Shown: positions 1,773-22,200 of the stretch, piece by piece
Layout: each line of letters begins with the position of its first letter
Numbering within the stretch: the stretch's first letter is position 1
Made by a program: the position numbers and the translations under genes
The notes under the pieces: generated by a model
What the model saw: only the letters and a program-made list of their open reading frames with translations
Told to the model about the DNA's origin: nothing
Databases searched by the model: none
Assembly (NCBI RefSeq): GCF_004010195.1
Contig: NC_057719.1
Span: 504,389 to 561,401, forward strand
Source of the DNA: Chiloscyllium plagiosum
Taxonomy: Eukaryota
Reading direction: 5' to 3'
DNA: 57,013 nucleotides

Positions 1773-3360
1773 TTAGAGTCAGAGTCATAGAGATGTACAG
1801 CATGGAAATAGACCCTTCGCTCCAACTCGTCCATGCCGACCAGATATCCTAAATTAATCCAATCCCATTTCCCAGCACTTGTCTAATCTAAACCCTTCCT
1901 ATTCACTTACCCATCCAAATGCCTCTTAAATGTTGGATTTGTACCAGCCTCCACCACTTCCTCTGGCAGCTCATTCCATACACGTACCACCCTCTGTGTG
2001 AAAAAGTTGCCCCTTAGGTCTCTTTTATATCTTTCCCCTCTCACCCTAAACCTATGCCCTCTAGTTCTGGACTCCCAGACCCCAGGGAAAAGACTTTGTC
2101 TAATTATTCTATCCATGCCCCTCGTGATTTTATAAACCTCTATAAGGTCACCCCTCAGACTCTGATGCTCCACGGAAATTAGCCCCAGCCTGTTCAGCCT
2201 CTCCCTGTAGCTCAAATCCTCCAACCCTGGCAGCATCCTTGTAAACCTTTTCTGAACCCTTTCAAGTTTCACACCATCTTTCCGATAGGAAGGAGACCAG
2301 AATTGCACGCAATATTCCAACAGTGGCCTAACCAATGTCCTGTACAGCCGCAACATGACCTCCCAACCCCTGTACTCAATACTCTGGCTAATAAAGTAAA
2401 GCAAACCAAACTCCTATCTACCTGTGACTCCACTTTCAAGGAGCTATGGACCTGCACTCCAAGGTCTCTTTGTTCAGCAAAACTCCCTAGGACCTTGCCA
2501 TGAAGTACGGGTGGCACACTGGCTCAGTGGTTAGCACTGCTGTCTCACAGTACTAGGGACCTAGGTTCAATTCCCGCCTTGTGTGAATGTCTGTGTGGAG
2601 TTTGCACATTCTCCCTATGTCTGTGCGGGTTTCCTCTGGGTGCTTGCTTTCCTCCCACAATCCAAAGATATGCAGGTCAGGTGAATTGGTCATGCTAAAT
2701 TGCCTGTAGTGTTAAGCTGCATTAGTCAGGGGTAAATATAAGGTGGGGGAATGGATCTGGGTGGGTTACTTTTCAGAGGGTCAGTGTGGACTTGTTGGGC
2801 CTAATGGGTTATTTCCATACTGTAGGGAATCTAATCTATGTATAAGTCCTGCTCTGATTTGCTTTTCCAAATTGCAGCACCTTGTATTTATCTAAATTAA
2901 ACTCCATTTGCCACTTCTCAGCCCATTGGCCCATCTGATCAAGATCCCGTTGTAATCTGAGGTAACCTTCTTCGCTGTTCACTACACCTCCAATTTTGGT
3001 GTCATCTGCAAGCTTACTAACTATACCTCTTATGTTCACATCCAAATCATTTATATAAATGATCAAAAATAGAGGACCCAGCCCTGATCCTTGTGGCACT
3101 CCACTGGTCACAGGCCTCCAGTCCGAAAAACAACCCTCCACCACCACCCTCTGTCTTCTACCTTTGAGCCAGTTCTGTATCCAAATGGCTAGTTCTCCCT
3201 GTATTCCATGAGATCTAACCTTGCTAATCAGTCTCCCATGGGAAACCTTGTCAAGTGCCTTACTGAAGTCCATATAGATCACATCAACTGCTCTGCCCTC
3301 ATCAATCTTCTTTGTTACTTCTTCAAAAAACTCAATCAAGTTTGTGAGACATGATTTCCC
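1773..3360 (-). mobile_element. 5'-truncated CR1/HER1 LINE (RT and 3' UTR), interrupted by a SINE
   Basis: [35 protein letters not shown] motifs; ctatga tail. Confidence 0.92.
2508..2836 (+). mobile_element. HE1-type SINE nested in CR1
   Basis: A/B boxes, tail ending tctaatcta. Confidence 0.85.
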
Positions 3361-4130
3361 ATCCCACTTACTATCTTTTCAAGTCTGGCAGAAGACATAC
3401 CATTGTTCTGCCATTCTCACATTGCGATCCCTTAATCTGAACTATCAATATCTTTACTCCCCCAGTGCACAACAGCCACCAACTGCTCCCTGCTCCCTCC
3501 CCCCCCCCCTCCCAACTATAGCATCAATCTGCCCACTCCACACTTCAGCTCTGATGGAAACACTAGCTTGCTCTCTCCCCAGGGATGCTGCCTGATGCTG
3601 TGATCTCCTGCACTTGCTGTTTTCAGTACAGATTCCAGCATCTGCAGTAATTTGTTCCTAAAATAAATCCCCTGAGTCTCTTTGATAAATCTTCTCAGCA
3701 TCTTTACCCATTATCTTTAACAAGAAGAAACCAGGCTGTTTATGGTGGTCTAGACGTGGTTTCTAAGCATGGATCTACACAGGTTTAATGTAATGTTGCT
3801 ATTTTTAGTGATTTGTGTGTCAGTAATTCTGGATATCAGGTAGAAACTTGAAAAGAGAAATACACTTGTGCTCTTCCACATCTAGATCATTGTTCATCTC
3901 CCTCTTTCTCTTTTCCACCGCCAGTAACCATTCCCACAGCAGGATGGTTCCCAAGCTCTGGAATTCCCTTCCTAAAACTTCCTTTTCTTAAAGACCCTTT
4001 ATCCAAGCTACAGGTTTGAATCCAGCTTTAAGTTCCAATATGTCATTATCTCTTACTCAGCATGAGATTTTTTTCTGAATCATACTCCCATAGTAACCTT
4101 CTCCTATGATATAAATGAAAGTTCATTTAC

Positions 4131-4281
4131 CTTCAGCATCTGTACCTCAGGCTCGAGCTTTAAGCTGAATCCTGTCAGGACCTTTGGCTTGTTTTGAAAC
4201 TGTACCAGTGAGCTGTGTAATGACAGAATCTGTTCCTTCATTGATTCCAGTGCAGTGAAGGCCATTCTCAGTGAAGTCTCT
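4131..4281 (-). CDS. Nesprin-like helical exon ([41 protein letters not shown]...MLK)
   Basis: 151 nt, phase 2/0, AAG|GTAAAT donor, amphipathic-helix pattern. Confidence 0.8.
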
Positions 4282-7200
4282 CTGTAACAAACACAGGATC
4301 AATATGGCAACATTGGCCATGGACAATTAATTCATCTCTAGCTAGGTCTCACATTTACTGCCCATCTTTAAATGTCTCAGAGGGCAGTTAAGAGTCAACT
4401 CCATTGTGTGGCTCTGGAGTCACATGTGTGTGTCAGACCATGTAAGATGTCCCTCCCTAAAGGACAGTAGTGAATCAGATGGGTTTTAATGACAATTGTC
4501 ACCATTAGACCAGTTGTTTAATTCCAGCATCTACCAAGGTGGGGTTTGAACCCAGACCCTCAGGACATTAGGCTGGGGTACTGGATTACAGCTCAGTGAC
4601 ATTACACACCCCCACCACCTACCCTCTCCTCATCATAGTTGTCTACCACTTGGCAGTCAGTCTCTCATTCGTACAAGTGGGGAGATGTTGCTGTCGTGGT
4701 AATGTCACTCGGCTAGTGAGGTCCAGTCTCGTAGTCTAAAGCCAGGGGTTCAAATCCCATCTGCCCGAGCTACAACCAAAGTACTGAGTAATTGCAGTTC
4801 TGAAAAGGGGCCACTTGACCCTTGGAGGGCCGAAGGGCCCGTTCCTGTGCTGTATTGACCTGAAACATTAACTCAGATTTCTCTCCATAGTTGCTGCCAG
4901 ACCTGCTGAGCTTTTCCAGCAATTTCTATTTTTGTTTCTGATTTACAGCAACCACAGTTCTTTCGGTTTTTATTCAGTAACTGCTGCTTGCTTTGACATT
5001 TCAGGGAAAGTTGGTGAACGTCAACGTCCTGGACATTGTGGAGAGGTTGATCTGCTCCATTATATTGTATTTCCAGATGTGTATTTTACCTGGTTCTCCA
5101 GGACTAAGAATGGCTTCCTCCACTGGCATTACCCAGATATGACGGAGCATGTTGGTAATGTCATGGTGTGGAGACCCTTGCTAGATTTACTTTATTTTTC
5201 TCTTTTTTTTTGGTGAAACTATTTGTGAGGTTAGTGGTGAAGTCTGAACAGCTGCATGTTTTAAAAGAAGAGACAAACACAGGCGTCTGCAGTTGGTGGC
5301 TGGTCTGGAAGATAATGCAACTTTGTCACCATCTAAAGGACCCTGTGGACAATAGGGCATTGGGTGTTACCAGGCCCAGGGCAGGCATCTGGTTGGACGC
5401 TGAATTGGTCGGCCAACCACAGGGAACGCTGATTAAAAAGGAAGGGATACTGATTCTGATTGGCTTTGGCAGGTGTGGAGCGATGCTGGAATCTCCGAGA
5501 TTAGCTGCTGTGTTTTCTCTCTCTCGGGTTTTCTGTCCACTTTAAGAATCAGAGTCAAAGAGGTGTACAGCATGGAAACAGACCCTTCGGACCATACTGA
5601 CCAGATATCCTAATCTAATCTAGTCCCATTTGCCAGCACTTGGCCCATATCCCTCTGAACCTTTCCTATTCATACACCCATCAGATGCCTTTTAAATATT
5701 GTAATTGTACCAGCCTCCACCACTTCCTCTGGCAGCTCATTCCATAATTGTTGAATGTTCTGAGGAAGGAATCCCAGTCTGTATGAAATAAGTAAATAAT
5801 TCTGGAAGAATTCCAAAATTGTTCACATTCACCAGTGACTTTGAAGTTAGCTATACGATTTGCAACACAGCAAAATTAAAATATTCCCTCAAAATTGCCC
5901 ACCCATTTCCTCACCAGACTACAAATAGAATCATAGAATCCCGACAAGGTAGAAGTATGCCATTTGGCCCATCGATTCTACACCAACCCCCAAATAGCCT
6001 GGGAATAGCTCATTAAACAAGAGCTGCATGAAGGCTTCCATCCATTGTTTGAAACTGTTTAACTGAACTGACAAATTACAATTCTTTTATCGTCTTTCAA
6101 TTTATCCCTTAACTGGGTCTGTCTGTCTGTGTCTGAGTGGGGATGTATGCTCATAGAAGATTGGATTTAAATCATGGATATTTAAAATACTTTGGAATTC
6201 AGATTTGTACTCTAAAATTACAGTACAATTAAAAAATCTGTTAGTTTTTTTGAAGTTAGAAACTTGGAGTCCAAGATCCATTATGTTCGACTCAGGTTCG
6301 ATTCCAGCCTCAGTCGACTGTCTGTGTGGAGTTTGTACACTCTCCCCCTGTCTGAGTGGGTTTCCTCTGGGTGCTCCAGTTTCCTTCCACAGTCCAAAGG
6401 TGTGCAGGTCAGGTGGATTGGCCGTGGGAATTAGAAGGTTACAGGGATACGGTAGGGGGATGGGTCTGTTTGGGATGCTCTTTGGGGGTTGGTGTAGAAT
6501 CGATGGGCCAAATGGCATACTTCTACCTTGTCGGGATTCTATGATTCTATTTGTAGTCTGGTGAGGAAACGGGTGGGCAATTTTGAGGGAATATTTTAAT
6601 TTTGCTGTGTTGCAAATCCAGTTGATAGGAAGGCTTATTTGGTTTGGCTTGCTATCCCTGGGTCCTAACACTGGAATAGTAATCCAGACATCGAGAATAA
6701 TGCTCTGGGGACATGGTTCAAATCCCACTGTGAAGCCGAGGAATTTAATAAATCAATTAATGAATCTGGAGTTGAATGCTCATGTCAATGAAACTATTGT
6801 TTCAAGCTGTGAAACCCAAATGATTCACTAATCTGCCATCCTTACTAGCTCTGGCCTGCATGTGACTCCACAGCAACATGTGACTCCAGAGACACAGAAG
6901 AGGACCTTTGGAAAGGATTTCCTGACACTCCAGCCCCTAGATAGCAGAGAGCTGCTTTCACAACTTTAATGAGATTAACACAACCAACCATCCCCTCATC
7001 CTCTGGGTATCACTGTCACACAGATTGTACACTTTCCTAGTTATTTAGCTGAATTGGCCACTTCTTCACAAGCTACCTCAAAATCTGCTAACAATTCCTC
7101 ACTGCTTATCTTAGGAAATAGTAAGTCATCAATCTTAAACCTTACAGGACAGTATACTGAATATCCAGTACCTTTCAGAAATCTCATTCCCTGTCTTTAC

Positions 7201-10200
7201 GGTGTGGTCCTGTCTTTCAACGTCTGCCATGCTTCGACCTTCCTCCTCTCGAGTCTCTTTACCTTGCTGTGCCCTTTCACTGGGATCCACCAAGTCCAAA
7301 GTCATAATGTCAGCAAACTCCTAGGGAAAGAAACAGGACACATCCAACACTTTCAAATCCTGCACTGAGATAGGTTAAGGGTGAGAGGGGAAAGATATAA
7401 AAGAGACCTAAGGGGCAACTTTTTCACACAGAGGGTGGTACGTGTATGTAATGAGCTGCCAGAGGATGTGGTGGAGGCTGGTACAAGTGCAACATTTAAG
7501 AGGCATTTGGATGGGTATATGAATAGGAAGGGTTTGGAGGGATATGGGCCGGGTGCTGGTAGGTAGGACTAGATTGGTTTGGGATATCTGGTCGGCATGG
7601 ACAGGTTGGACCGAAGGGTCTGTTTCCATGCTGTACATCTCTATGACCCTATGACTCTATGAAATCACAAGTTCCTAGAAGGATTATTGTCAGTTTAAAT
7701 AGACTGAAGTCAGGGGACTGACCCTTCAGGGTGATGGTTCAGGTATAAACATGGGTTGAAATGACAACAGAGTCAATAATCTCTTCTGAAACATCAGAGG
7801 CAGTTTCTGTTTAGAATTGCTAAGTGTCTTACTGAGACACTGTTCACGATGTCTCATTGAAGATAAGCTTATTTTTATAAACAGAAAAGAAGGGAGGGCA
7901 TCAATTTGCCCCCCAGAGCCATCTGGTGACCAGAGTTTGAAATTACCTTGTGACTGTTTACATATCAAAACTGAATGGGAGATACAGGTACTGCCATTCA
8001 CAATGGGAAACATTGTCTCAAAAATGTCATCAAAATCTCTGACAACAAGAAATACAACTTACAGGAAATAATTAAATAGAAAGTATTTAAAACATATCTA
8101 CATAATTTACAGAAGAAGACTAGTTTAAACAGAAAGCTTCATTTCTCTTTAACTTTAGCAAGTATTTGATTGGTTAAGAGTACAGTAAGGATACCTGTTC
8201 AGTGCTGTGCACTGGTTTCCCTGAGTCCTTCCTCGTTGGATCATCAGTCAAGTTACTGCGTTCTAAATATTCCATTTGAGATTGGGAAAAATCAGCAAGC
8301 GGCCAAGTCACAGTCGTCGCAGACTCCTTTCCCGTCAATTCACCTTCATCTCGTGGTTCAAGGTCTTCATTCAGTGTTCTGACAAGTCTTGCTGCAGAAC
8401 CAGCTGACTGATTTCTCTCTGCATTTGAAGAGCAGCTCACTGATTGGGCAGAATTTTCCATTTCTTTGGAACTCTGAGGGATGTGAATTCTGGGAGGGAA
8501 CGCATCTCCTTCTGGGGTGGCAGTCTGATCGGCTCTGATTTGAAAAACTGGTGCTGACTCAGCAGAAGCCTCCTTTACTTGCTCCACCTGGCTCAAAGGC
8601 TCTCCCTCAAACTGCCCTGACAATCCAGGTTCAAGGGTAACATCCACTTCAGGGGAAATCATTTCTCCTGACGGAATGATTGCCTGGACACTACGCTGGC
8701 ATTCAGGACCCAGGGGCTGCACACCTGGGGGATTGAGCTCAGCAGGTTGGTGTCTGCGTGAGCCAGCTCTGCCTGTCTGCTCCTGTTCACTCACAGCATC
8801 CTGCGTATACTGAACAAAACAAGATTGTTGTGCTGGTTCAGAATTCTCCCGCAGCAGAGCAACAGCCTGCTGTCTCTCAGTCCAACCTTCTGGTTCAGAA
8901 AGAGCATGCTCAGGATTCCCTGGGTCACCAGTCTGTTCATGTGCCCACAGTTTCATTCCTTCCCTGTCCAATGAATCCACATTGTTTTGGGTCATGGTCT
9001 GCGTTGCTCCGGTTACAGACATTTCTGCAGGTGGGGTGTGGCCTTCACTTTGCTCACTGATGGGTAATCGGTCAGTATCACCTCTCGGGAGGCCATATGC
9101 CTCATCTTGATCAGTCTTTGCTCCTATGTTGGGAGGAGAAGATACCTTTCCACAACAGCCTCCTGTCTGTTCCTGTTCCCCCTGTATCGCTCCTTCCCAG
9201 TTCACTGAATCTTCCATTTTGCGAGGATCAGTCTGATCTGCTCCAATCAGAATCTCCTCTACAGACAGAGTGAGATCATCACCCCATTTTCTACCAGTCA
9301 TGTTCTCACGGATCTCTGCACTTTGGCCCTCAGATGCTCTCACCAATAATACAGTATTCTGAGCTACTGCATTCTCAGTTTGTTTCTCCACAGACAGTGG
9401 CTCTGTCACTGCACCATGAGAGGCATCACTCACTAGGCCATCAGCCTTCTCTCTCTCACTCAGATCCTTGCCTGACACTCCTGCTGAATCCTCCATGACT
9501 GTAGCATCACCCTGAAGTTCTCCACTCAGACTCATTGTCATCAAAGGGGCAGAAGATCCTGTGCTTGTCCTATCGCCATGTTCTCTCTCCCTCAGATGTT
9601 CTGGAGAGTCCACTCCAAGTGGGCCCAATGTCTGCACTTTCCCAGAATGAAGCTCTGTCCCTGATTGAGAAATCTTCTCTGATTCAAGGACGTTCAGCTC
9701 TTTCTCCATCACACACTTTCTTCCAGACTGAGCAGAATCTTCTGCTGTCAGGTCAGCATTGGTTCCTTCTTCACTGACAGAGTCTGGGAGTAACTGCCCA
9801 GAATCATCTTCTGGAAGGTCACACACCTTAATGTCTCCACTGAGGGCCAGTTCTGACAACTGACCAGAACCTGCCATTGTTGGATGGTCACATCTGTCTG
9901 TTCTAACTGGAGATGATGTTGATAATTGGGTGGGATCTTGTCTTGGCTGATTTCCAGTCAGCTCCCTTTCACTCACAGACACTGTTAGTGATTTCTGAGT
10001 GCCCTCCACAGGTAGGCCATAAGCCTGGTTCACCCCACTGGAATACTCTTTTGGAAGTTGATCTGTACTTTCTGTTGCTGCAGTGATTGTCTGCTCTTGG
10101 TCAAACACAAAGTCTGGGTTATCATGAGTAGGTAATTCTCCCATTAGGGTTTGGCTTCCGTTACTCTGAGATACTTCGACTAACTGAGGAAAGGCCTGCG

Positions 10201-13200
10201 TGAGTAGGCCATAACTGTGGTCTTGTTCACTCAGGGACCGCACAATGTTCTTTGCTACAGCTGTGTAGGTCTGGGTTTGTTCACTGATGGGTAATCGGTC
10301 AGTATCATTGCTCGGGAGGCCATATGCCTCATCTTGAACAGCCATTGCTCCTATTTTGGGAGAAAGAGATACCTTTCCCCAACGGCCTCCTGTCAGATTC
10401 TGTTCTCCCTGTATTACTCCTTCCCAGTTCAATGAATCTTTCATTTTGCGGGGATTGGTCTGATCTGCTCTAATCAGAATCTTCTCTACAGACAGAGTAA
10501 GATCGTCACCCCATTTTCCACTAGTCATACTCTCTTGGATGTCCTCACGTTGTCCCTGAGATTGTTTCTCCTCAGACAGTGGCTCTGCTGCTTCAGGAGT
10601 GGCATCACTCACTTGGCCATCAGCCTGAGGTCTCTCACTCAAATCCCCTCCTGACCCTACTGGTGAATCCTCCATGACTGTACTGTCACCCTGATTTTGT
10701 CCACTCAGACTCATTGTCATCAAAGGGGCAGAAGGCCTTGTGGTTAACCTCTCGCCATGTTCTCCCTCCCTCAGGCTTTCTGTAGCATCCACTCCAAGTG
10801 GGCCCAATGCCTGCACTTTCCCAGAATGAAGCTCTGTCCCTGATTGTGAAATCCTCTCTGATTCAAGGACGTTCAGCTCTTTCTCCATCACACACTCTCT
10901 TCCAGACTGAGCAGAATCTTCTACTGTCAGGTCAGCATTGGTTCCTTCTTCACTGACAGAGTCGGGGGGTAACTGCCCAGAATCCTCTCCTGGGAGGTCA
11001 CAAACTTCAATGTATCCACTGAGGGCCAGTTCTGACAACTGACCAGAACCTGCCACTATTGGATGGTCACATCTGTCTGTTCTAACTGGAGATGATGTTG
11101 ATAATTGGGTGGGATCTTGTCTTGATTGATTTCCAGTCAGCTCCCTTTCACTCACAGACACTGTTAGTGATTTCTGAGTGCCCTCCACAGGTAGGCCATA
11201 AGCCTGGTTCACCCCACTGGAATACTCTTTTGGAAGTTGATCTGTACTTCCTGTTGCTGCAGTGATTGTCTGCTCTTGGTCAAACACAAAGTCTGGGTTA
11301 TCATGAGTAGGTAATTCTCCCATTAGGGTTTGGCTTCCATTACTCTGAGATACTTCGACTAACTGAGGAAAGGCCTGCGTGAGTAGGCCATAACTGTGGT
11401 CTTGTTCACTCAGGGACTGCACAATGTTCTTTGCTACAGCTGTGTAGGTCTGGGTTTGTTCGCTGATGGGTAATCGGTCAGTATCACCTCTCGGGAGGCC
11501 ATATGCCTCATCTTGAACAGCCATTACTCCTATGTTGGGAGGAGTAGATACCTTTCCCCAATGGCCTCCTGTCAGTTCCTGTTCCCCCTGTATCGCTCCT
11601 TCCCAGTTCACTGAATCTTTCATTTTGCAGGGATCAGTCTGATCTGCTCCAATCAGAATCTCCTCTACTGGCAGAGTAAGATCATCATCCCATTTTCTAC
11701 CAGTCATTGTCTCACGGATCTCTGCACTTTGGCCCTCAGATGCTCTCACCAATAATACAGTATTCTGAGCTACTGCATTCTCAGTTTGTTTCTCCACAGA
11801 CAGTGGCTCTGTCACTGCACCATGAGAGGCATCACTCACTAGGCCATCAGCCTTCTCTCTCTCACTCAGATCCTTGCCTGACACTCCTGCTGAATCCTCC
11901 ATGACTGTAGCATCACCCTGAAGTTCTCCACTCAGACTCATTGTCATCAAAGGGGCAGAAGATCCTGTGCTTGTCCTATCGCCATGTTCTCTCTCCCTCA
12001 GATGTTCTGGAGAGTCCACTCCAAGTGGGCCCAATGTCTGCACTTTCCCAGAATGAAGCTCTGTCCCTGATTGAGAAATCTTCTCTGATTCAAGGACGTT
12101 CAGCTCTTTCTCCATCACACACTTTCTTCCAGACTGAGCAGAATCTTCTGCTGTCAGGTCAGCATTGGTTCCTTCTTCACTGACAGAGTCTGGGAGTAAC
12201 TGCCCAGAATCATCTTCTGGAAGGTCACACACCTTAATGTCTCCACTGAGGGCCAGTTCTGACAACTGACCAGAACCTGCCATTGTTGGATGGTCACATC
12301 TGTCTGTTCTAACTGGAGATGATGTTGATAATTGGGTGGGATCTTGTCTTGGCTGATTTCCAGTCAGCTCCCTTTCACTCACAGACACTGTTGGTGATTT
12401 CTGAGTGCCCTCCACAGGTAGGCCATAAGCCTGGTTCACCCCACTGGAATACTCTTTTGGAAGTTGATCTGTACTTTCTGTTGCTGCAGTGATTGTCTGC
12501 TCTTGGTCAAACACAAAGTCTGGGTTATCATGAGTAGGTAATTCTCCCATTAGGGTTTGGCTTCCGTTACTCTGAGATACTTCGACTAACTGAGGAAAGG
12601 CCTGCGTGAGTAGGCCATAACTGTGGTCTTGTTCACTCAGGGACTGCACAATGTTCTTTGCTACAGCCGTGTAGGTCTGGGTTTGTGCACTGATGGGTAA
12701 TCGGTCAGTATCATCGCTCGGGAGGCCATATGCCTCATCTTGAACAGCCATTGCTCTTAACTTGGAAGGAGTAGATACCTTTCTCCAACAGCCTCCTGTC
12801 AGCTCCTGTTCCCCCTCTATCGCTCCTTCCCAGTTCACTGAATCTTTCATTTTGCAGGGATCAGTCTGATCTGCTCCCAGCAGAATCTCCTCTACTGGCA
12901 GAGTGAGATCATCACCCCATTTTCTACCAGTCATGTTATCTTGGATCTCCTCAGGTTGGCCCTCAATTTGTTTCTCCTCAGTCAGTGACTCTGTCACTGC
13001 ACCAGGAGAGACATCACTCACTAGGCCATCAGCCTTCTCTCTCTCACTCAGATCCTTGCCTGACACTCCTGCTGAATCCTCCATGACTGTACTATTACCC
13101 TGAAGTTGTCCACTCAGACTCATTGTCATCAAAGGAACAGAAGATCCTGTGAATGTCCTATCGCCATGTTCTCTCTCCCTCAGATGTTCTGTAGAGACCA

Positions 13201-16200
13201 CTCCAAGTGGACTCAGTGTCTGCACTTTCCCAGAATGAAGCTCTGTCCCTGATTGCGAAATCTTCTCTAATTCAAGGACGTTCAGTTCTTTCTCCATCAC
13301 ACACTCTCTTCCAGACTGAGCAGAATCTTCTACTGTCAGGTCAGCATTGGTTCCTTCTTCACTGACAGAGTCTGGGAATAACTGCCCAGAATCCTCTCCT
13401 GGGAGGTCACACACTTTAATGTCTCCACTGAGGGCCAGTTCTGACAACTGACCAGAACCTGCCATTGTTGGATGGTCACATCTGTCTGTTCTAACTGGAG
13501 ATGATGTTGATAATTGGGTGGGATCTTGTCTTGGCTGATTTCCAGTCAGCTCCCTTTCACTCACAGACACTGTTGGTGATTTCTGAGTGCCCTCCACAGG
13601 TAGGCCATAAGCCTGGTTCACCCCACTGGAATACTTTTTTGGAAGTTGATCTGTACTTTCTGTTTCTGCAGTGATTGTCTGCTCTTGGTCAAACACAAAG
13701 TCTGGGTTATCATGAGTAGGTAATTCTCCCATTAGGGTTTGGCTTCCGTTACTCTGAGATACTTCGACTAACTGAGGAAAGGCCTGCGTGAGTAGGCCAT
13801 AACTGTGGTCTTGTTCACTCAGGGACTGCACAATGTTCTTTGCTACAGCCGTGTAGGTCTGGGTTTGTTCACTGATGGGTAATCGGTCAGTATCATCGCT
13901 CGGGAGGCCATATGCCTCATCTTGAACAGCCATTGCTCCTATGTTGGGAGGAGTAGATACCTTTCCCCAATGGCCTCCTGTCAGTTCATGCTCCCCCTGT
14001 TTCGATCCTTCCCAGTTCACCGAATCTTTCATTCTGCAGGGATCAGTCTGATCTGCTCTAATCAGAATCTCCTCTACCGACAGAGTAAGATCATCACCCC
14101 ATTTTCCACGGGTCATACTTTCTTGGATCTCCTCATGTTGGCCCTCAGATGATCTCACCAAACATACAGTATTCTGAGCTACTGCATTCTCAGTTTGTTT
14201 CTCCACAGACAGTAGCTCTGTCACTGCACCAGGAGAGGCATCACTCACTAGGCCATCAGCCTTATCTCTCTCACTCAGATCCTTGCCTGACACTCCTGCT
14301 GAATCCTCCATGACTGTAGCATCACCCTGGAGTTGTCCACTCGGACTCATTGTCATCAAAGGAACAGAAGATCCTGTGCTTGTCCTATCGCCATGTTCTC
14401 TCTCCCTCAGATGTTCTGTAGAGACCACTCCAAGTGGACTCAGTGTCTGCACTTTCCCAGAATGAAGCTCTGTCCCTGATTGCGAAATCTTCTCTGATTC
14501 AAGGAGGTTCAGCTCTTTCTCCATCACACACTTTCTTCCAGACTGAGCAGCATCCTCTGCTGTCAGGTCAGCATTGGTTCCTTCTTCACAGACAGAGTCT
14601 GGGAGTAACTGCCCAGAATCCTCTCCTGGGAGGTCACAAACTTCAATGTCTCCACTGAGGGCCAGTTCTGACAACTGACCAGAACCTGCCATTGTTGGAT
14701 GGTCACATCTGTCTGTTCTAACTGGAGATGATGTTGATAATTGTGTGGGACCTCGTCTTGATTGATTTCCGGTCAACTCCCTTTCACTCACAGACACTGG
14801 TGATTTCTGACTGCCGTCCTCAAGTAGGCCGTAACCCTGGTCTATTCCACTGGAATACTCTTTTGGAAGTTGAACTGTACTTTCTGTTGCTGCAGTGATT
14901 GTCTGCTCTTGGTCAAACACAAATTCTGGGTTGTCATGACTGGGTAACTCTCTCATTAGGGTTTGGTTTCCTTCAATATGATACTCTCCTGTCTGCTCTT
15001 GACCCCTCTGGATCGCTCCATTGAGGTTTACTGAACTTTTCATTGCGCAGGGATCTGTCTGATCTGCTCCAATCAGCGATTCTTTGTCACACGACGTGAG
15101 GCTTTCACCCTGTTTTCTACCAAATAAACTCTCTTGAGTGTCACTCACATCTGATTGGTCCTGAACTGCTACTGGCCATTCCACAGTGGCCTGTACTGTT
15201 GGTTTGTCAAGTTGTTCCTCTTCACTCAGAGACACTTCCACACTCGCAGGAATATCTTCACCCTGATCTCTTCCTGTCAAACTGAGCTGTTCAGTGAGAA
15301 ACCCTTTGCTGAACTCAGCAATTGCCTTTGTTCCTCGATGCGCAGCCTGCTGTTTCTTACTGAGAGCCATGACTGTCACTTGAGCAGGTTTCTCTGTTCG
15401 AGCTGTGTCCAAGGCTTTCTGCCCTGTCTTCTCTTTCTGTGACTGAACCAAGCAGTCACGTGTTTGGAGGCAACCCTGATGCTGCTTACTGGGAAATGCT
15501 GACGCTAACAGTGCTGACCCACCTCTGTGTGTGGTCTCCCCTTGGCCTTGCCCACTCAGTGAATCTTCCCCCAAGTGAGTGATGTCCACGTTTGGGAACA
15601 TTTCCATCTCACATTTTCCCATCGGGAGATATTTGGCCAGTTGGCCAGAATCGTCGGCAAGACCTTGACTTCTGGAAGAAATTGCCATTAAGTCAGTGTG
15701 ACTGCCCATTGCCTGGGCAGGGCCCTGATCCTCACCACTCGAAGACTGCATTTGCAATTGAGTAAAGTTCAAACCAGGAGCCTCAGTGTCCCCTCTCTGG
15801 GACATGGAGTAATGCTGACCAGTACGTTCTCCTTTCACAGTAGCAGGAGGCTCTCCATCCGTCAGACAGTGTGTCACTGATTGCTGACAGTCCCCTCTTT
15901 GTAACCAGTCACCCTGGAGTTTCCTACTCTGAGTCTCTTGGACAGATTGAGTTTGGCCTTCTCTGCCCAGGTCATCAATTCTAGTCCACTCTGTCCATGG
16001 TCCAGGGATTTCACTTGCTTCATTATCGCCCAGAATGTTTCTGTTGAGTTCTGCCGCTCCAAGTTGTGTGGAGGCCTGGCCTACTTTGGTCACAGGTTGG
16101 GCTGAATTCTCACCCCCTGGATCGTCAGCCTGTTCTGTTCGTCTTTTTGCCCATCCAGATGGTGCCTTCCTTGTTGCATCCTCAGTCAGATCCATTTCCC

Positions 16201-19200
16201 TTTGACACTCACTCTTCAATTCCCTGTTAAATTTACAATGCACTTGTCAGTCTGAGAACATGCATCTGCAAATTCTTGCAAAACCCCAGTAGGAGAAGAT
16301 ACAGTGAGGAAACGTGGTTTGGAAGGTTCTTTGGTGTTAACACCTTTTACACCAAAGAACTTTTCAAACCACGTTGCTGGGTGATTATAAAAACACATTT
16401 TGAATCAAGCCACAGCAAGAGATAATAGGTGAGGTGACCAAAAGCTTTGCCAGTGAGGTGGATTTTTATGCAGTGTTTTAAACAAGGACATTGAGGTAGA
16501 GATAGGGAGATGAGAGAGGGGACACTGAGATTGGAGTCCAGGCAGCTGAAGGTACAGCCAGCAATGCTGCAGCGATAGGAATCAAGAACAAACAGGAAGC
16601 TGGAATTATAGGAGCAGAGAGATCTCAGAGGGTAGAGGCAATTACAGAGATAGGGGGAGGGGGGAAAGGCCATGAAAGAATGTAAGAATAAGGAAGAACA
16701 TTTTAAAGCAGAGGTATCAGAGCCACAGAAGGTCAGCAAGCACATGATTAATATTATGAAGAGAACTTGTTTCAGATGAGCTCAGGTTTACAGAGAGTGG
16801 AAAGTGGTAGAGCATCCAGTGGAACACTGGAATAGCTGCATCAGGAGGGAACTGAGACATGGATGAGGGTTTCAGCTGTGGGTTGAGCTGAGGCAGGAGC
16901 ACTGAGGGTCAATGTTGTGGAGGTGGAAATGGTTAATCCTGCTCTCGGAGGAGAGATGTTGCATAGCCACTTCCAATGTAACATCAGTCAGTACCTCCTG
17001 GGAAAAATCCCCTCCTCCCATCAGGGGCTGATGAATATTAATGCAACCAACTAACCCCTTCCTCCCCACACCGATCCAATTGTGAGTGATCCTGCCAAAG
17101 AACTGGAACACCCTACAGCAGTGTGGGGAAAGGGACCAGTTCAGATTTCTCCATGTTGTTGAGAAATGGAGCTCATTCTGCAGCTAAGACTGTGGCCAGG
17201 ATTTAAGGCCAACACCATCCTTGCCTGATACAAACTCTCTGCACTGCTTCCCTTCGTTCCCTTCCTTCTCTCTTCTCTCACCCAATGGTGCTTGAGGCAA
17301 ACAAAGCATATGCTTATCGCTGGATTTTCCTGGAATAGACCCCGAGCCTATGGCCAACCTTTCTTTAAACGAAGACATTAATCTGCTTCTGCATGTTTCA
17401 TCAATTTAATCAGTAGGTTAGCAAAACAGTAGGACTCAAAACCTGGGGGAATTTGGAATTCACTTTTAAATGATTGTAAGAAAAAGTGAAGTCTCAGCAA
17501 AAGTGACCACGATGCTGTTGGATTATTGGAAGACACCCAGCGCCCTTACATGTCTACATGTGACTCCTGCTCTCACAACAATAAAATACTTAATTAAAAT
17601 ATTCCATTTCTATCAAATCCCCATGAATGGTCATGATTCATGAAGAACCCTCAGTGGAGGTGATTTTAGCATCAGTGCTGACCCTGTCTGTGGTGAGCTG
17701 ACTGGGTCCTGGAACCAGGAAAAACACTTGATGAGCTGTTGCTCCAGGTCAGTCTTACGATCCTCACAGGACTGCAGGGTGGCCTTTATTTCAGCATCAA
17801 CATTGCCATCACAGAGCTCCCTCATCGCTGCCAGGTGTTGTTGGGCTCGGGTCAAACTGCTGCCTTTGGAAAAGAACATCTAGGAAAAAACAGAAGAATC
17901 TTTGGGATAAAGAGCTACATTTCAACTCTCACAAGAGCTCAGCATCAGACCAGGAAGAGATGCAGGTATTTTTATTTATTTACAGAATATGGCCATCACT
18001 TTGGTCAACATTTATTGTCCATCTCCAATTGTCCTTGAACTGAATGCCTAACTAGGAACACTTCAGATGACTATTATGAGTCAAGCCACATTATCATGAT
18101 CTCAAGTCATCTGTAGGCCAGACTTGGTAAGGACAGTAGATTTCTTTTCCCTCCAGGACATGAGTGAACCAGATGAGTTTTTAGGACAATCCACAGTGGC
18201 CATCATTATACTGGATTTGTCGTCATTATGACCACATGGTCATCATTATACCCAATCTTAATTCCAGACGTGTATTGAATTTCAATGCTGCCTTTGACCA
18301 TGGTGGGATTACTATTCCCATCTCTAAATTATTTGCCTGAGATGCATTAGCCCAGTAACATTTCGAAAACTCCACCAAACAGATTGCTATCAAAGAGCGA
18401 CTCAGTCCCCAGGTGGGGATGGAATTACCTGGTGCCCATCAAGAAGGGACTGCACATGAGAGCTGTCCATTCCCTGATGGACCTCACACTCCTGAAGAGC
18501 CGCGTTGAATTTATTCTGCTCCACCTCAAACTTCATCCGATGAAGATGCGCATCCACCAATGATTGCACCTTCTGAAAACCAAACCAAAACCTGCCTCAA
18601 TATCACTCTTACCAGAAACAGGCCAATCGATGAACCTCCTCACTCACACCTTCTTCAATGAACTGCATCAACATAGCTTTCTCTCCCTTTCTCCCACAGG
18701 GACTTAGCCAACTCCTCCTTAAACACATCTTTGCTGTTCATTGTAACCATTCCCAGTGGTAACTAGCTCCACATTCTCCCAATTCTCAGGATAAAGGCAT
18801 GTCTCATGAATTCGCAGCTGAATTCACTGGAATTGCCTTACACTGCTGGACCCCAGTTTTGTCTCCCTTCCCAATGAGAACACTTCCTATGCATCTACCT
18901 CATTGAACCTTCGCACAATTTTTAAATCCTCCTCAGCATTCTCTTTTCTTGAGAGAAGAGCCCCGGCCTGCTGAGGCTCTCCTCATAATTATATTAGGAT
19001 GGGTTTCATTTTTTAAAATCTTGGTTTGCAAAGTCTCCAATGCGTCTGTATCTTTTTATAACATGGAATATGGAACTGTGCACAGTGCCCAAAGGAAGGC
19101 CCATAAACAAGATCCTCGTTTTTATTCTCCCTCTCTTGATCTTCCATTAAAGTTTTGCAAATATTTTGCCTTCAAGCTGCATCCTCGCCATCACAATCTT

Positions 19201-22200
19201 TGTGTGCGAGTGTAGGTTACGAGGCCCTCCTTTGAAGCTTTAGCTGTGGCTTAATGGGTCACTATCTTGATTCCAGATTGGATGTTTGCAAGTTCAACTC
19301 CCTCTCCACAAACCTGACCAGGGATTGGAGGCTGATACTCCTGTTGCAGGACTGAAGGAGTGCTGCACTGCTGAAGGTGTGAGCTGTCTCACGATAGATG
19401 TTAAACTCAAAACCTTTCAGGGCTCTCTTCTGAAGACGAGACAATATTCAACCTTAACCAAGTGAAAACAGAACATCTGCTCATTATCATATGGCCCTTT
19501 GTGGAATTCTATTTAGCAATCACATTTCCTACATTTGAACTCCAAAAAATATTTCACTGGCTGTCACATGCTTTGAGGAGAAAGTGAGGACTGCAGATGC
19601 TGGAGATCAGAACTGAAAATGTGTTGCTGGAAAAGCGCAGCAGGTCAGGCAGCATCCAGGGAACAGGAGAATCGACGTTTCAGGACTAAGCCCTTCTTCA
19701 GGATTCCTGAAGAAGGGCTTATGCCCGAAACGTCGATTCTCCTGTTCCCTGGATGCTGCCTGACCTGCTGCGCTTTTCCAGCAACACATTTTCAGCTCTG
19801 TCACATGCTTTGGACATGCTGAGGTTATCCAAGGTGCCATAACAATGCAAGTTATTTCTGTCCAGTGCATAATCATTTGGCTCTATGTTCGAGGTGATTG
19901 GTGGTAAAGGCATGAACCTGAATTGCTGAGCCGCGCTATTCGGCCCACACAGGGTCCGACATCGGCACACCGGCCGCAATTGTCTCACCTCCCAGTTTCG
20001 GCAGAGCTCTGCCCGCATTTCCTCAACAATCTGCTTCTTCTGAGGGGTTAACATCATTTTGATTTTATCTGTTGCTTCAAGAAAATGTTCAATGATTCCA
20101 GAATCAAAGCTCCTGATTGTTTCCTGTGAGGAACACAATATTAATCAGTCTCCGTTTACTGCCATTACATTGCCATAGCTTTTCAAGGGAGAAAGTTCTA
20201 GATTGTCACTGCCCTTCCTGTGAAGAAATGCTTCCTGATGTCGCCCCTAAACAGCCTGTCTCCATATTGACGGTTCAGTATCCTTGCTCCAGACTCCCTC
20301 TCACCCGAGGCAATACCTTCTCTTGGTCAGCCCAGTCAACTCCTTCAATTGTAGAGTCTATAGAAACATCTTTTGGCCTGAAATTATTCAATCAGACTGC
20401 CTCTTAATCTTCTATATGTGAGGAAATTCAATAAATTCAATAAAAGCTCCCTATTTAAACCCCTTAGTTCCAGAATTTCTAGCACCAATATTTCTCCTCT
20501 GTGGTTGTATGGAGTCGGAACAGAAGGTGCCCAACCTGTGACCCAGCCCATGGCCAATGGAGACCTGCAGGTGAGTGGCTACCTGGTGCTTCACAATGAG
20601 TTCCTCTGGGGACCCTCTGTCCTCGAGAAACTGCATGGCCCCTCCAATGCAGGCTTCTATCCTTCTCTTCGATTCTTCAAAGTCCCGTTTGACATCAACT
20701 TCTGACACTGTGCGCTCACCCACCTGGGCTGGCTCGGCACACGGCACGTCACTGCCCACCTAGGCCAGAGAGACGGAGGGTTAGGCACTGTTTCTCTCAT
20801 TAACACACACACACACACACACAGACACACATACACACACACACACACACACACAGACACACACACACACACACAGACACACAGACACACAATTCATGGA
20901 ACTACAGTTTCAGAGGAATATTCGTGTCATAAAACAAAGGTCAAGAGGACGTTTTATCAAAGTGATCTGAATAATCAGAGGCCATGATTAAGTAAATGTG
21001 GAGAAACACTTCCCAGTGGCAAATGATGGGTAACTCTTGAATATGTTCAAGAAAGAGATTGTTGGTTTTTCGATTTTTAAGGCATCAAGGATACAGAGAG
21101 AAAGCAGGAAGATGGCATTGGGATAGAATATCAGCCATGAATGGCCTACTCTTGCTCATTATTCTGATGTAGCCAGAAGGCACAGATTTAAAGTGACTGG
21201 CCAAAGAACTAGGGGTGAGATGGAATAAAAACCGTGAGTTCTTATGAATTGGAACATACAGGTGGTGGGAGCAGGTTAAATATGAGCTTTCAAATAGGAG
21301 TTTAATTTGTAAGTAAAGAGGAATTGCAATTAGAACATAAGAACTAGGAGCAGGAGTAGGCCGTCTCGTCCTTCGTGCCTGCTCTGCCACCTCAGTAAGA
21401 TCATGGCTGGTCTTTTCGTGGACTCAGATCCATTTATCCACGCTCTTACCATATCTCTTAACTTCTGTAATGTTCTAAAAATATGTTCCTTAGCTTTAAA
21501 AATGTTCACTGAAGTAGGGGCAACTATTTCGCTGGGCAGGGAATTCCACAGAATCACAACCCTCTGGGTGATGAAGTTCCCCCTCAATTCAGTCCTAAAC
21601 CTGCTCCCCCTAACTTTGAGGCTGTGCCCTCTTGTCTTAGTTTCACTCTCCAGTGGAAACATCCTCTCCACTTCTACCTTATCTGTTCCCTTCATAATTT
21701 TATATGTTTGTATAAGATTCCCCCTCATTCTTCTGAATTCCAATGAATATAATCCCAGTCTACGCAGCCTCTCCTCATACGGCAACCCCCTCAACTTCCA
21801 GAACCAACCCAGTGAACCCCCTCTGCACCCCCTCCCGGGCCAGTACATCCTTTCTCAAGTAAGGAGACCAAAACTGCACACAGTACTCCAGGTGTGGCCT
21901 CACCAGCACCCTTAGGGCTGCAACATAACCTCCCTGCTTTTAAACTCCATCCCTTTAGTAATGAAGGACAAAATTCTATTTTCCTTTTCTAATTACTTGT
22001 TGTACCTGCAAACCAACCTTCTGTGATTCATGTACAAAGACACCCAGGTCCCTTTGCACAGCAGCATGTAATTCTAAGGGGAAAGAGAAGTAGGTGAGTG
22101 GAATGACACCTCTTTCAGTATGATCGACTAAACCTCCTCATGAATCAGATTTAAAAGCTATTTGCTTCCCCATCGTCAAACTGGAATGTGCTGCCTGAGA

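What the first reader, a model, noticed from the sequence alone, without database searches (positions are those of the whole stretch)
8195..16223. 8-kb repeat-built, probably disordered exon inserted in a nesprin rod
Seen: one stop-free, TE-free exon of about 2,676 codons, phase-compatible with nesprin-like exons on both sides, rich in S/E/G/Q/T/D and lacking spectrin heptads. Known: nesprin-1/2 giant rods are mostly spectrin repeats encoded by small exons, whereas giant exons define special isoforms in titin, ankyrins and AHNAK. Inference: this may be an extensible entropic spacer between the actin-binding head and the rest of the rod, i.e. an undescribed spring-like LINC-type linker.
Basis: partly seen in the sequence, partly recalled or inferred. 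Interest (0 to 1): 0.85.

Follow-up and report, generated by a model that had tools for sequence, protein, structure and literature searches.

The report
Giant disordered repeat exon, shark nesprin-2
An 8-kb exon in this shark genome is a real, expressed part of the nuclear-tether gene nesprin-2 that adds about 2,700 floppy, acidic, repeat-built residues where other vertebrates have only a short linker; public shark gene models already contain it, but nobody seems to have studied it.

Summary
Window 16223..8195 (minus strand) is one 8,029-nt exon with canonical AG and GT sites. It is the only long open frame in the region. It contains five tandem units of 337-409 residues plus a partial sixth.

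The gene is the shark orthologue of nesprin-2 (SYNE2). It has paired CH domains and a spectrin rod, and its KASH exon lies on another contig of the same assembly. RNA contigs cover the exon. Two of them, from two studies, end exactly at the predicted 5' junction; depth arithmetic indicates that they bridge it.

AlphaFold2 finds no fold in a unit (pLDDT 36). The neighbouring spectrin segment, given an equally shallow alignment, scores 83. The exon is acidic (pI 4.4), and its sequence was found only in sharks.

The same exon is already in RefSeq models of at least ten shark species, at about 1,000 to 4,650 residues with one to about ten units. Rays have about 530 residues at this site, and mouse has at most about 119. 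It is therefore a lineage-expanded disordered linker.

The "entropic spring" role is plausible but untested. Worm ANC-1 and fly Msp300 are precedents for lineage-specific repeats in nesprins. Verdict: real, moderately interesting, a new member of a known kind.

The parts
8195..16223 (-). Giant coding exon of the nesprin-2 orthologue, 8,029 nt (2,676 codons plus 1 nt). It enters after 2 nt of a codon and ends on a codon boundary.
   Evidence: Open frame. AG at 16225-16224 and GT at 8194-8193. Colinear with P0009 residues 824-3498. Covered by RNA contigs from 14100 to 16222.
15068..16223 (-). Non-repeated N-terminal part of the exon, about 385 aa.
   Evidence: 92 % identical to P0009 824-1205. 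37-59 % identical to the same part in eight other shark models.
14057..15067 (-). Repeat unit 1, 337 aa. It lacks profile positions 30-100.
12875..14056 (-). Repeat unit 2, 394 aa.
11648..12874 (-). Repeat unit 3, 409 aa. This is the unit folded with AlphaFold2.
   Evidence: AlphaFold2 pLDDT 36.4.
10469..11647 (-). Repeat unit 4, 393 aa.
9242..10468 (-). Repeat unit 5, 409 aa. 97.6 % nucleotide identity to unit 3.
9023..9241 (-). Partial sixth unit, the first 73 profile positions.
8195..9022 (-). Non-repeated C-terminal part of the exon, about 276 aa. Its last about 50 aa are the only part with a detectable match in a ray.
   Evidence: P0009 92 %; Pristis P0013 residues 927-978, 36.5 % over 52 aa, E 2e-5.
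17683..17879 (-). Upstream exon, 197 nt. It ends with 2 nt of a Gly codon that is completed by base 16223.
   Evidence: Sequence. 97 % to P0002/P0009. RNA contig X4 record 27 lies on 17682-17881.
7172..7320 (-). Downstream exon, 149 nt, starting on a codon boundary.
   Evidence: Sequence. 86 % to P0009 3499-3548.
4131..4292 (-). Next downstream rod exon. Boundaries are approximate, taken from tblastn.
   Evidence: 92.6 % to P0009 3545-3598.
18426..20759 (-). Three-exon spectrin-repeat module, copy B: about 20759-20583, 20141-19980 and 18578-18426.
   Evidence: tblastn. Spliced joint 18572>19989 in 4 of 4 runs.
23501..26365 (-). Three-exon spectrin-repeat module, copy A, a tandem duplicate of copy B: about 26365-26189, 25747-25595 and 23653-23501.
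   Evidence: tblastn. X12 record 10 joins the first exon of copy B to a sequence like the last exon of copy A.
28291..42256 (-). Exons of the paired CH (actin-binding) domains: about 42256-42194, 40741-40640, 34387-34304, 34203-34108, 30103-29897, 29338-29144 and 28425-28291.
   Evidence: tblastn, 86-100 % to P0002 residues 27-303. Pfam CH domain PF00307 on P0002, E 6e-45.

Best explanation
**What it is.** The region is a real, transcribed, obligatory coding exon of the shark orthologue of nesprin-2 (SYNE2), the giant outer-nuclear-membrane tether of the LINC complex.
- It encodes about 2,676 residues of acidic, intrinsically disordered polypeptide.
- It sits after the CH-CH actin-binding head and the first spectrin repeats, and before the remaining spectrin rod and the KASH anchor.
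- It is the enlarged version of a short acidic non-spectrin linker that other jawed vertebrates carry at the same site.
- It grew by tandem duplication (unequal crossing-over and conversion) of a unit of about 400 aa, and unit number differs between shark lineages from 1 to about 10.

**Why it is obligatory.** The exon starts after 2 nt of a codon and ends on a codon boundary. It cannot be skipped without a frameshift, so every head-to-KASH isoform must carry it.

**Mechanism I commit to (inferred, not shown).** The chain acts as a long compliant tether in series with the stiff spectrin rod.
- Contour length is about 1 micrometre. The relaxed end-to-end distance is only about 30-45 nm (worm-like-chain estimate).
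- This would widen the reach of the actin-binding head and buffer low forces.
- It would also display five copies of a set of conserved short blocks that may bind partners.

**Likelihoods.** Identity as a nesprin-2 exon, about 0.95. Disorder, about 0.8. A selected tether or scaffold function rather than tolerated ballast, about 0.4.
For: **Gene identity**
- Window exons match the CH-CH head of C. punctatum P0002 at 86-100 %, and the Pfam CH domain is found on the homologues.
- A search with the N-terminal 556 residues of S. canicula P0004 listed 120 proteins. All named non-chondrichthyan ones were nesprin-2 or SYNE2, and none was nesprin-1.
- Full-length shark models carry spectrin families and KASH (PF10541): P0009 7,656 aa, P0010 6,040 aa, P0011 6,666 aa.
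- The KASH exon of P0009 is 76/76 identical to contig C88408 of this same assembly.

**Expression and splicing**
- Contigs of X1, X2 and X4 cover all 9 bins between 14100 and 16322. X4 record 26 is 1,424 nt of uninterrupted exon.
- X1 record 6 stops at 16222 with 96 letters left over. X4 record 27 stops at 17682 with 59 letters left over.
- The binned depths fit those leftovers lying on the other exon. For X1, 3.4 x 96/247 = 1.32, as tabulated. For X4, 11.4 x 118/247 + 14.4 x 59/247 = 8.89 against 8.88 tabulated.
- The GT..AG joint 18572>19989 appears in 4 of 4 runs, which shows the material is spliced RNA.

**Obligatory inclusion**
- Skipping joins GG to GAGTTTGCTGACATTATGA, giving a stop after 6 codons.
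- All long RefSeq isoforms examined contain the array: 6 of 6 C. punctatum, 6 of 6 Mustelus and 2 of 2 S. torazame.

**Disorder**
- AlphaFold2 on a unit with a 12-sequence alignment gave mean pLDDT 36.4 and pTM 0.12, with 409 of 409 residues below 50.
- The control was the adjacent spectrin segment with an 11-sequence, more divergent alignment. It gave pLDDT 82.7 and pTM 0.71, all helical.
- The exon lies on the disordered side of the charge-hydropathy boundary, with net charge -0.091 per residue and pI 4.4.
- No credible Pfam domain and no usable ESM Atlas hit.

**Expansion of an older linker.** The exon-equivalent segment is 2,675 aa in C. punctatum, about 1,018 in Stegostoma, 4,650 in S. 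torazame, 2,400 in S. canicula, 2,000 in Mustelus, 1,820 in Cetorhinus, 1,100 in Heterodontus and 1,460 in Heptranchias. It is about 515-550 aa in three rays, and at most about 119 aa in mouse and about 110 in a turtle.

**Ongoing rearrangement.** Some units pair as orthologues with C. punctatum units, while others are closest to a unit of their own species. Units 3 and 5 are 95 % identical.
Against: **Function is untested.** No assay, tissue pattern, protein evidence or force measurement exists.

**Limits of the RNA evidence**
- It comes from assembled contigs of runs whose RNA label is a guess.
- The 5' junction does not appear among the joints listed (73 rows were cut) and rests on my depth arithmetic.
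They rest on gene models and canonical sites only.
- X2 and X12 gave no junction evidence.

**Signs against a purely entropic spacer.** Units from sharks as distant as Heptranchias align colinearly with few gaps at 37-48 % identity, and 19 columns are invariant. That suggests sequence-specific constraint.

**Signs against strong selection**
- dN/dS between units within the exon is 0.61-1.03.
- Unit number varies about ten-fold between species.
- No tested motif class is enriched over shuffles, apart from a weak [FWY]..[LIV] excess (z 2.7) that the repeats themselves inflate.

**Other caveats**
- The AlphaFold2 alignment is shallow (12 rows).
- One model, Carcharodon P0012, lacks the exon together with about 295 downstream residues. 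This could be a gap artefact or a real isoform.
Confidence: 0.7

Rival explanations
1. Tolerated ballast. The array is a functionally neutral runaway expansion of a permissive linker. The only selection is against stops and frameshifts, because the exon cannot be skipped and the KASH anchor lies downstream.
For: - dN/dS between units is 0.61-1.03.
- Unit number ranges from 1 to about 10 among sharks, and Chiloscyllium-like genomes differ in unit order.
- No motif class is enriched.
- Other nesprin-2 models carry unrelated low-complexity insertions at other sites: Q/P-rich stretches of 700-1,400 aa in four teleosts, and different repeats in two frogs. The rod therefore seems generally permissive.
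Against: - Colinear conservation at 37-48 % identity with few gaps between distant sharks, with 19 invariant columns.
- The open frame is kept over 3 to 14 kb in every shark model seen.
- Conversion between units makes the within-exon dN/dS unreliable.
Confidence: 0.3
2. Isoform-specific exon. As with the giant exons of ankyrin-G and ankyrin-B, the exon is included only in some tissues. Most nesprin-2 protein lacks it, for example through internal promoters downstream or transcripts that end upstream.
For: - Nesprin genes are known to make many shorter isoforms from internal starts (general knowledge, recalled).
- The Carcharodon model P0012 lacks the exon.
- The contig data cannot give inclusion levels.
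Against: - Skipping gives a stop after 6 codons, so no head-to-KASH isoform can omit it.
- 14 of 14 long RefSeq isoforms in three species contain it.
- Contigs of two studies end exactly at the junction.
Confidence: 0.15
3. Each unit is a folded domain of a new family, as reported for the beta-rich repeats of fly Msp300-PE. AlphaFold2 missed it because the alignment is shallow.
For: - The alignment across sharks is unusually gap-poor.
- Two weak helices are predicted, at residues 68-80 and 246-265.
Against: - pLDDT is below 50 at 409 of 409 residues, whereas an equally shallow control reached 82.7.
- Order-promoting residues make up 0.24-0.25 of the exon, against 0.30-0.35 in the CH and rod segments.
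- The Atlas recognition score of 698 is in the range of shuffled sequences.
Confidence: 0.05
4. It is not a real exon: a chance open frame, a pseudo-exon, or an assembly artefact of collapsed or expanded repeats.
For: - The scaffold around the gene is imperfect. There is an N gap, a misplaced 3' exon at 56202-56002, and the KASH exon is on another contig.
- Unit number in repeat arrays is prone to assembly error.
Against: - The chance probability of the open frame is about 1e-56.
- Both splice sites are canonical.
- RNA contigs cover it.
- An independent assembly of C. punctatum gives 2,675 aa with the same five-unit layout.
Confidence: 0.01

Closest known systems
RefSeq and GenBank gene models of elasmobranch nesprin-2. 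Examples: C. punctatum XP_072424107.1 'uncharacterized protein isoform X4' (P0009), Stegostoma tigrinum XP_059504896.1 'nesprin-2' (P0010), Mustelus asterias XP_078090644.1 (P0011), S. canicula XP_038646361.1 (P0004), Heptranchias perlo XP_067848297.1 (P0006), Heterodontus francisci XP_067895925.1 (P0007).
   Same: The same exon at the same position in the same gene. P0009 is 92 % identical in the unique parts and has the same five-unit layout.
   Different: Unit number and exon length differ, from about 1,000 to 4,650 aa. These are automatic models. I found no description of the exon in the papers searched.
Nesprin-2 (SYNE2) of bony vertebrates, for example mouse E9QP46 (P0095).
   Same: Orthologous gene with a CH-CH head, spectrin rod and KASH. 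There is an acidic, disorder-side, non-spectrin stretch at the homologous site, mouse 1044-1162 (net charge -0.092 per residue, pI 4.5).
   Different: At most about 119 aa there, against 2,676 aa here. It has no repeats and no detectable sequence similarity to the shark units: one search found 6 hits in 1.84 billion representatives, all from sharks.
C. elegans ANC-1: six tandem repeats of 903 residues (PMC8139857, passages read).
   Same: A nesprin-1/2 orthologue whose middle is a lineage-specific array of long tandem repeats, nearly identical at the nucleotide level. In the worm these repeats are needed for function.
   Different: The ANC-1 repeats are predicted helical and spectrin-like and replace most of the rod. 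The shark units are predicted disordered and sit beside a normal spectrin rod. There is no sequence similarity.
Drosophila Msp300-PE: tandem repeats of 108 aa x about 20 and 101 aa x about 19 (PMC11230431, passages read).
   Same: Lineage-restricted, negatively charged tandem repeats inside a nesprin.
   Different: They occur in a CH-less, KASH-less isoform and were predicted by AlphaFold 3 to form beta sandwiches with disordered loops. The units are four times shorter, and no homology was found.
Giant exons of ankyrin-G (480 kDa) and ankyrin-B (440 kDa), and the PEVK spring of titin (recalled, not looked up here).
   Same: Multi-kilobase exons, or an exon cluster in titin, that add long extended or disordered segments to cytoskeletal linker proteins.
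   Different: The ankyrin exons are frame-preserving, neuron-specific cassettes; this exon is not frame-preserving. P+E+V+K make up only about 25 % of residues here, so it is not PEVK-like.

Membership tests
Nesprin-2 (SYNE2) giant isoform | Paired N-terminal calponin-homology domains | tested here: met
   Window exons 42256-28291 align at 86-100 % to residues 27-303 of P0002. Pfam PF00307 is found on P0002, P0004, P0005 and P0006 with two stretches each, E 1e-40 to 1e-45.
Nesprin-2 (SYNE2) giant isoform | Long rod of spectrin repeats | tested here: met
   Precomputed Pfam PF00435, PF25034 and PF25035 on P0009, P0010 and P0011. AlphaFold2 of the segment just upstream of the exon is all helical, pLDDT 82.7. 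Downstream rod exons lie on the same scaffold down to C10:450532.
Nesprin-2 (SYNE2) giant isoform | C-terminal transmembrane and KASH domain | tested here: met
   PF10541 is on P0009, P0010 and P0011. The last 76 residues of P0009 are 100 % identical to G000:C88408 in this assembly. Caveat: that contig is not joined to the window's scaffold.
Nesprin-2 (SYNE2) giant isoform | Closer to nesprin-2 than to nesprin-1 | tested here: met
   Among the 120 proteins listed, every named entry outside chondrichthyans is nesprin-2 or SYNE2, at 48-56 % identity. A second CH-bearing locus with its own KASH exon lies on contig C9; its CH2 exon is only 47 % identical. No tree or synteny test was done.
Intrinsically disordered linker | No stable predicted fold, with a folded control under the same conditions | tested here: met
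   pLDDT 36.4 and pTM 0.12 for the unit, against 82.7 and 0.71 for the control.
Intrinsically disordered linker | Low mean hydropathy with high net charge (charge-hydropathy plot) | tested here: met
   Mean hydropathy 0.420, below the boundary of 0.446. Net charge -0.091 per residue. The margin is modest, and one rod segment also falls on that side.
Entropic spring (titin PEVK type) | PEVK-type composition | tested here: not met
   P 5.4, E 9.8, V 6.2 and K 3.7 %, about 25 % in total.
Entropic spring (titin PEVK type) | Worm-like-chain elasticity under force, without unfolding events | not testable with these tools
   Only a contour-length estimate (about 1,017 nm) and a relaxed size (about 29-45 nm) could be computed.
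Giant cassette exons (ankyrin-G/B type) | Frame-preserving exon that can be included or skipped | tested here: not met
   8,029 nt is 3n+1. Skipping gives a stop after 6 codons.
Giant cassette exons (ankyrin-G/B type) | Tissue-restricted inclusion | not tested
   The runs are coded and held as contigs, so no tissue or level information was available.
Lineage-specific tandem repeats of nesprin orthologues (ANC-1, Msp300-PE) | Array of long, near-identical tandem repeats inside a CH/KASH giant, restricted to one lineage | tested here: met
   Five units, 88-98 % nucleotide identity. Relatives were found only in sharks: 6 of 6 hits, 5 of 5.
Lineage-specific tandem repeats of nesprin orthologues (ANC-1, Msp300-PE) | Sequence homology to the ANC-1 or Msp300 repeats | tested here: not met
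   The exhaustive HMMER search returned shark proteins only. This is an analogy, not common descent.

The most novel reading that the evidence does not exclude
The array is a selected, length-tunable mechanical element. By adding or dropping 400-residue units, shark lineages would set how much slack (about 0.15 micrometre of contour length per unit) lies between the actin-binding head and the spectrin rod of nesprin-2. This would adapt nucleus-to-actin coupling to their large cells and nuclei. The conserved blocks in each unit would meanwhile form a multivalent docking array for a still unknown partner.
Probability: 0.15. Interest if true: 0.7.

Novelty: new member of a known kind. Interest (0 to 1): 0.4.

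Why it matters
Giant nesprins are usually treated as spectrin-repeat rods whose length sets the distance over which the nucleus is coupled to actin. This exon would give sharks a nesprin-2 with about a micrometre of floppy chain in series with the rod.

Copy number varies naturally between species, from one to about ten units. That makes a ready-made comparative series for two questions:
- Does linker length and compliance matter for LINC-complex mechanics?
- Do the short linkers at the same site in human SYNE2 have a role?

It also adds a vertebrate case to the worm and fly examples of lineage-specific repeat arrays in nesprins. That suggests the family is unusually prone to such expansions, or makes unusual use of them.

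On the practical side, several RefSeq entries that carry the exon are labelled 'uncharacterized protein' or, in one skate, 'calmin'. They could be renamed nesprin-2.

Tried and rejected
- **Tandem Repeats Finder** found nothing. Its longest period is 500 and the units are 1.2 kb. The repeats were found with the repeat finder and k-mer offsets instead.
- **Pfam on the exon**. The only hit above cut-off is DUF6808 (27.3 bits against 24.4). No single stretch passes on its own, and the score is summed over the repeats, so I treat it as spurious. The other three hits have E of 0.05 or worse.
- **The search for homologous proteins, 'longer'**: none. Only proteins of 4,709-5,000 aa were searched, so this says nothing.
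- **The look-up of sequencing runs**: no RNA holder listed. All holders are labelled 'RNA?' or '?'.
- **Parts without contig cover**. The intron bins 16817-17557 are uncovered in all four runs, and some exon bins are uncovered in X12. I do not use these as evidence.
- **Joints table**. It was cut (73 rows not shown) and does not display 16222>17682. I could not repeat the call because the cap is 1.
- **Choice of stretch laid.** I laid only 14100-21500, to keep the internal 1.2-kb repeats and the second spectrin-module copy out of the stretch. The 3' junction and the repeat core therefore remain unexamined in reads.
- **ESM Atlas**: no usable hit.
- **Motif counts against 300 shuffles**. CK2-type sites, SP/TP, W[DE] and acidic dileucine are not enriched. 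An idea that the conserved ...SVNWE... block is a kinesin-light-chain W-acidic motif rests only on recall and did not fit the pattern as I remember it, so I dropped it.
- **Earlier findings** by place and by sequence: nothing.
- **Call errors.** One search had a strand-format error and exceeded the 3,000-residue limit. Neither bears on the finding.
- **Complex prediction** was not used. No binding claim is made.

Full report
**1.

On the minus strand a single open frame runs from 16246 to 8174, 2,690 codons stop to stop. No other frame of 150 aa or more overlaps 7000-18000 on either strand (translation).

An AG at 16225-16224 precedes base 16223, and a GT at 8194-8193 follows base 8195. The exon is therefore 8,029 nt, that is one base plus 2,676 codons. 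By my arithmetic, a stop-free run of this length has a chance probability of about 1e-56.

The composition is as described: S 11.0, E 9.8, G 8.8, L 8.6, Q 8.0, T 8.0 and D 6.9 %.

The exon is built from five tandem units of 337, 394, 409, 393 and 409 residues plus a 73-residue partial sixth, flanked by unique parts of about 385 and 276 residues. DNA periods alternate between 1179 and 1227 nt, and units are 88-98 % identical at the nucleotide level.

The unit is not a dispersed element. In the 3.56-Gb assembly that holds the window, all 8 matches to one unit's DNA lie inside this exon.

**2. The gene is the nesprin-2 orthologue**

tblastn with the closest relatives maps the following exons on the minus strand of the window:
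- seven exons of a paired CH domain (42256-28291);
- two tandem copies of a three-exon spectrin module (26365-23501 and 20759-18426);
- exon 17879-17683;
- the giant exon;
- rod exons at 7320-7172 and about 4292-4131.

Further rod exons continue on the same scaffold down to C10:450532.

A search with the N-terminal 556 residues of the catshark protein P0004 returned 893 proteins at E of 1e-20 or better. Among the 120 listed are full-length shark models with CH, spectrin and KASH families:
- C. punctatum P0009, 7,656 aa;
- Stegostoma 'nesprin-2' P0010, 6,040 aa;
- Mustelus P0011, 6,666 aa.

Outside chondrichthyans, only entries named nesprin-2 or SYNE2, or left unnamed, appear in that list. None is nesprin-1.

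The KASH exon of P0009 is 76/76 identical to a small unplaced contig (C88408) of this assembly. The gene therefore ends in KASH, although the assembly does not show it contiguously. A second CH-plus-KASH locus on contig C9 is presumably the nesprin-1 gene; I did not test that.

Identity to C. punctatum proteins is 86-100 % in most exons and 92 % in the unique parts of the giant exon. This places the window in or near the genus Chiloscyllium (inference).

**3. The exon is transcribed and spliced**

I laid contigs of four runs (three studies, two organism labels) on 14100-21500.
- All four show the GT..AG joint 18572>19989, so they are spliced RNA although their label is a guess.
- X1, X2 and X4 cover every bin of the exon between 14100 and 16322. 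One X4 contig (record 26) is 1,424 nt of uninterrupted exon.
- X1 record 6 aligns up to 16222 and has 96 further letters. X4 record 27 aligns on 17682-17881 and has 59 further letters.

The joint itself is not in the truncated joints table. The binned depths, however, match to three figures what is expected if those letters lie on the partner exon:
- X1: 3.4 x 96/247 = 1.32, as tabulated.
- X4: 11.4 x 118/247 + 14.4 x 59/247 = 8.89, against 8.88 tabulated.

I therefore infer that contigs of two studies bridge 17683|16223. The one-base offset arises because the G fits on either side of the junction. X2 and X12 gave no junction evidence.

**4. The exon cannot be a cassette**

It begins after two bases of a Gly codon and ends on a codon boundary. 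Joining 17683 to 7320 reads GG-GAGTTTGCTGACATTATGA and stops after six codons.

All long RefSeq isoforms I could inspect contain the array: 6 of 6 for C. punctatum, 6 of 6 for Mustelus and 2 of 2 for S. torazame. The one model without it, Carcharodon P0012, also lacks about 295 downstream residues. It may reflect a gap.

**5. It is predicted to be disordered**

- AlphaFold2 on unit 3, with an alignment of the five window units and one unit from each of seven other sharks, gave mean pLDDT 36.4 and pTM 0.12. Every residue was below 50.
- As a control I folded the 218 residues just upstream of the exon in P0009, with an equally shallow and more divergent alignment (11 rows). This gave pLDDT 82.7 and pTM 0.71, all helical. 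The low score of the unit is therefore not simply an effect of alignment depth.
- The exon lies on the disordered side of the charge-hydropathy boundary, with net charge -0.091 per residue, pI 4.4 and P+G 14 %, against 6-8 % in the rod.
- There is no credible Pfam family and no usable Atlas hit.

**6. Distribution and history**

An exhaustive HMMER search of 1.84 billion representatives with a double unit found six proteins, all from sharks. A word-based search found five.

| Species or group | Length of the exon-equivalent segment | Units |
|---|---|---|
| C. punctatum | 2,675 aa | 5 |
| Stegostoma | about 1,018 aa | 1 |
| S. canicula | about 2,400 aa | 4-5 |
| S. torazame | about 4,650 aa | 9-10 |
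| Mustelus | about 2,000 aa | about 3 |
| Cetorhinus | about 1,820 aa | about 3 |
| Heterodontus | about 1,100 aa | 1 |
| Heptranchias | about 1,460 aa | 1, plus its own 17-aa micro-repeat |
| Three rays | about 515-550 aa, P/G-rich | none detected |
| Mouse | at most about 119 aa | none |
| Turtle | about 110 aa | none |

These figures come from mapping the flanks and a unit profile onto the models.

In the rays, only the last about 50 residues match the shark exon. In mouse, the segment between the same flanks is acidic and on the disorder side.

The simplest history is this. A short acidic linker, ancestral to jawed-vertebrate nesprin-2, lengthened in elasmobranchs. It reached about 1,000 residues in the shark ancestor. 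It was then amplified independently in several shark lineages.

Unit comparison with C. punctatum shows partly orthologous units and partly within-species homogenisation; units 3 and 5 are 95 % identical.

dN/dS between units is 0.61-1.03. Even so, units from distant sharks align with few gaps at 37-48 % identity, with 19 invariant columns. Constraint is thus weak but not absent.

**7. How it probably works**

Shown:
- an obligatory, expressed, disordered, acidic segment;
- of variable length;
- placed between the actin-binding head (with its first spectrin repeats) and the rod.

Inferred: with a contour length of about 1,017 nm and a relaxed size of about 29-45 nm (standard polymer estimate), it would act as a long, soft tether in series with a rod that is otherwise stiff. 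This would enlarge the capture radius of the head and delay force transmission until the slack is taken up. The repeated conserved blocks could also serve as a multivalent docking array, although no known motif class is enriched.

The main rival is that the array is tolerated ballast in a permissive linker. Unrelated low-complexity insertions in teleost and frog nesprin-2 models fit that view.

**8. Comparison with what is known**

The exon itself is already present in automatic gene models, but I found no paper on it. I ran these full-text searches:
- 'nesprin' with 'giant exon';
- 'nesprin-2' with 'spectrin repeats', 'disordered', 'evolution' and 'exon';
- 'nesprin' with 'shark' (33 papers, 10 listed, none about sharks by title or abstract);
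- 'SYNE2' with 'elasmobranch' (none).

Functionally the nearest precedents are the six 903-residue repeats of C. elegans ANC-1 (PMC8139857, passages read) and the acidic 101- and 108-residue repeats of Drosophila Msp300-PE (PMC11230431, passages read). Both are lineage-specific arrays inside nesprin orthologues. They are predicted helical and beta-rich respectively, and neither is related in sequence to the shark units.

I did not check it.

The ankyrin exons are frame-preserving cassettes, and PEVK composition is not met here.

**9. Verdict**

The feature is real, and its identity as a nesprin exon was correctly guessed. It is best described as a shark-specific, repeat-amplified disordered linker of nesprin-2. 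It is a new member of the known kind 'lineage-specific repeat arrays in giant KASH proteins', annotated but unstudied. The spring hypothesis is reasonable and testable but unsupported by any direct evidence. Interest is moderate.

Noticed in passing
window 18426-20759 and 23501-26365 (minus strand): A three-exon spectrin-repeat module (about 152 aa) is tandemly duplicated with a 5.1-5.6 kb period. The window has two copies. C. punctatum P0009 and Stegostoma P0010 show three, and the Hemiscyllium model P0003 shows four. Other sharks show one. An RNA contig (X12 record 10) joins the first exon of copy B to a sequence like the last exon of copy A, so both copies appear to be in the mRNA.
   Followed up: partly
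window 56002-56202 (minus strand), just beyond the 500-N gap at 55367-55866: An exon 100 % identical to residues 5630-5696 of P0009, from the far 3' part of the same nesprin-2 gene, lies upstream of the gene's first CH exon. This points to misordered contigs in the scaffold, or less likely a partial duplication.
   Followed up: partly
G000:C88408 (locus L002): The KASH exon of this gene sits on a small unplaced contig rather than on scaffold C10. The locus is therefore fragmented in this assembly.
   Followed up: partly
window 19534-20027: A short intronic element reaches summed contig depths of 4,000-240,000 in all four RNA runs, with many rearranged joints. It is probably a very abundant SINE-like or other dispersed repeat.
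   Followed up: no
window 1-3400 and 21300-22900 (minus-strand frames): Open frames with reverse-transcriptase-like sequence, apparently LINE-type remnants, lie in introns of the gene (by eye only).
   Followed up: no
window 54387-55241: A long low-complexity tandem array, whose minus-strand frames read a repeated ...SASICFHLLP... pattern, lies directly next to the N gap.
   Followed up: no
proteins P0032, P0114, P0066, P0035 (teleosts) and P0086, P0087 (frogs): Other nesprin-2 models carry unrelated large insertions relative to mouse. The teleosts have Q/P-rich stretches of 700-1,400 aa near mouse residues 670-850. The two frogs have different repeat arrays, one of them a 13-aa repeat, further along the rod. 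Large disordered insertions seem to recur in this gene.
   Followed up: partly
protein P0016 (Amblyraja radiata, 3,727 aa): A skate protein named 'calmin' by its source groups with the elasmobranch nesprin-2 N-termini (48 % identity over 67 % of the query). It may be misnamed.
   Followed up: no
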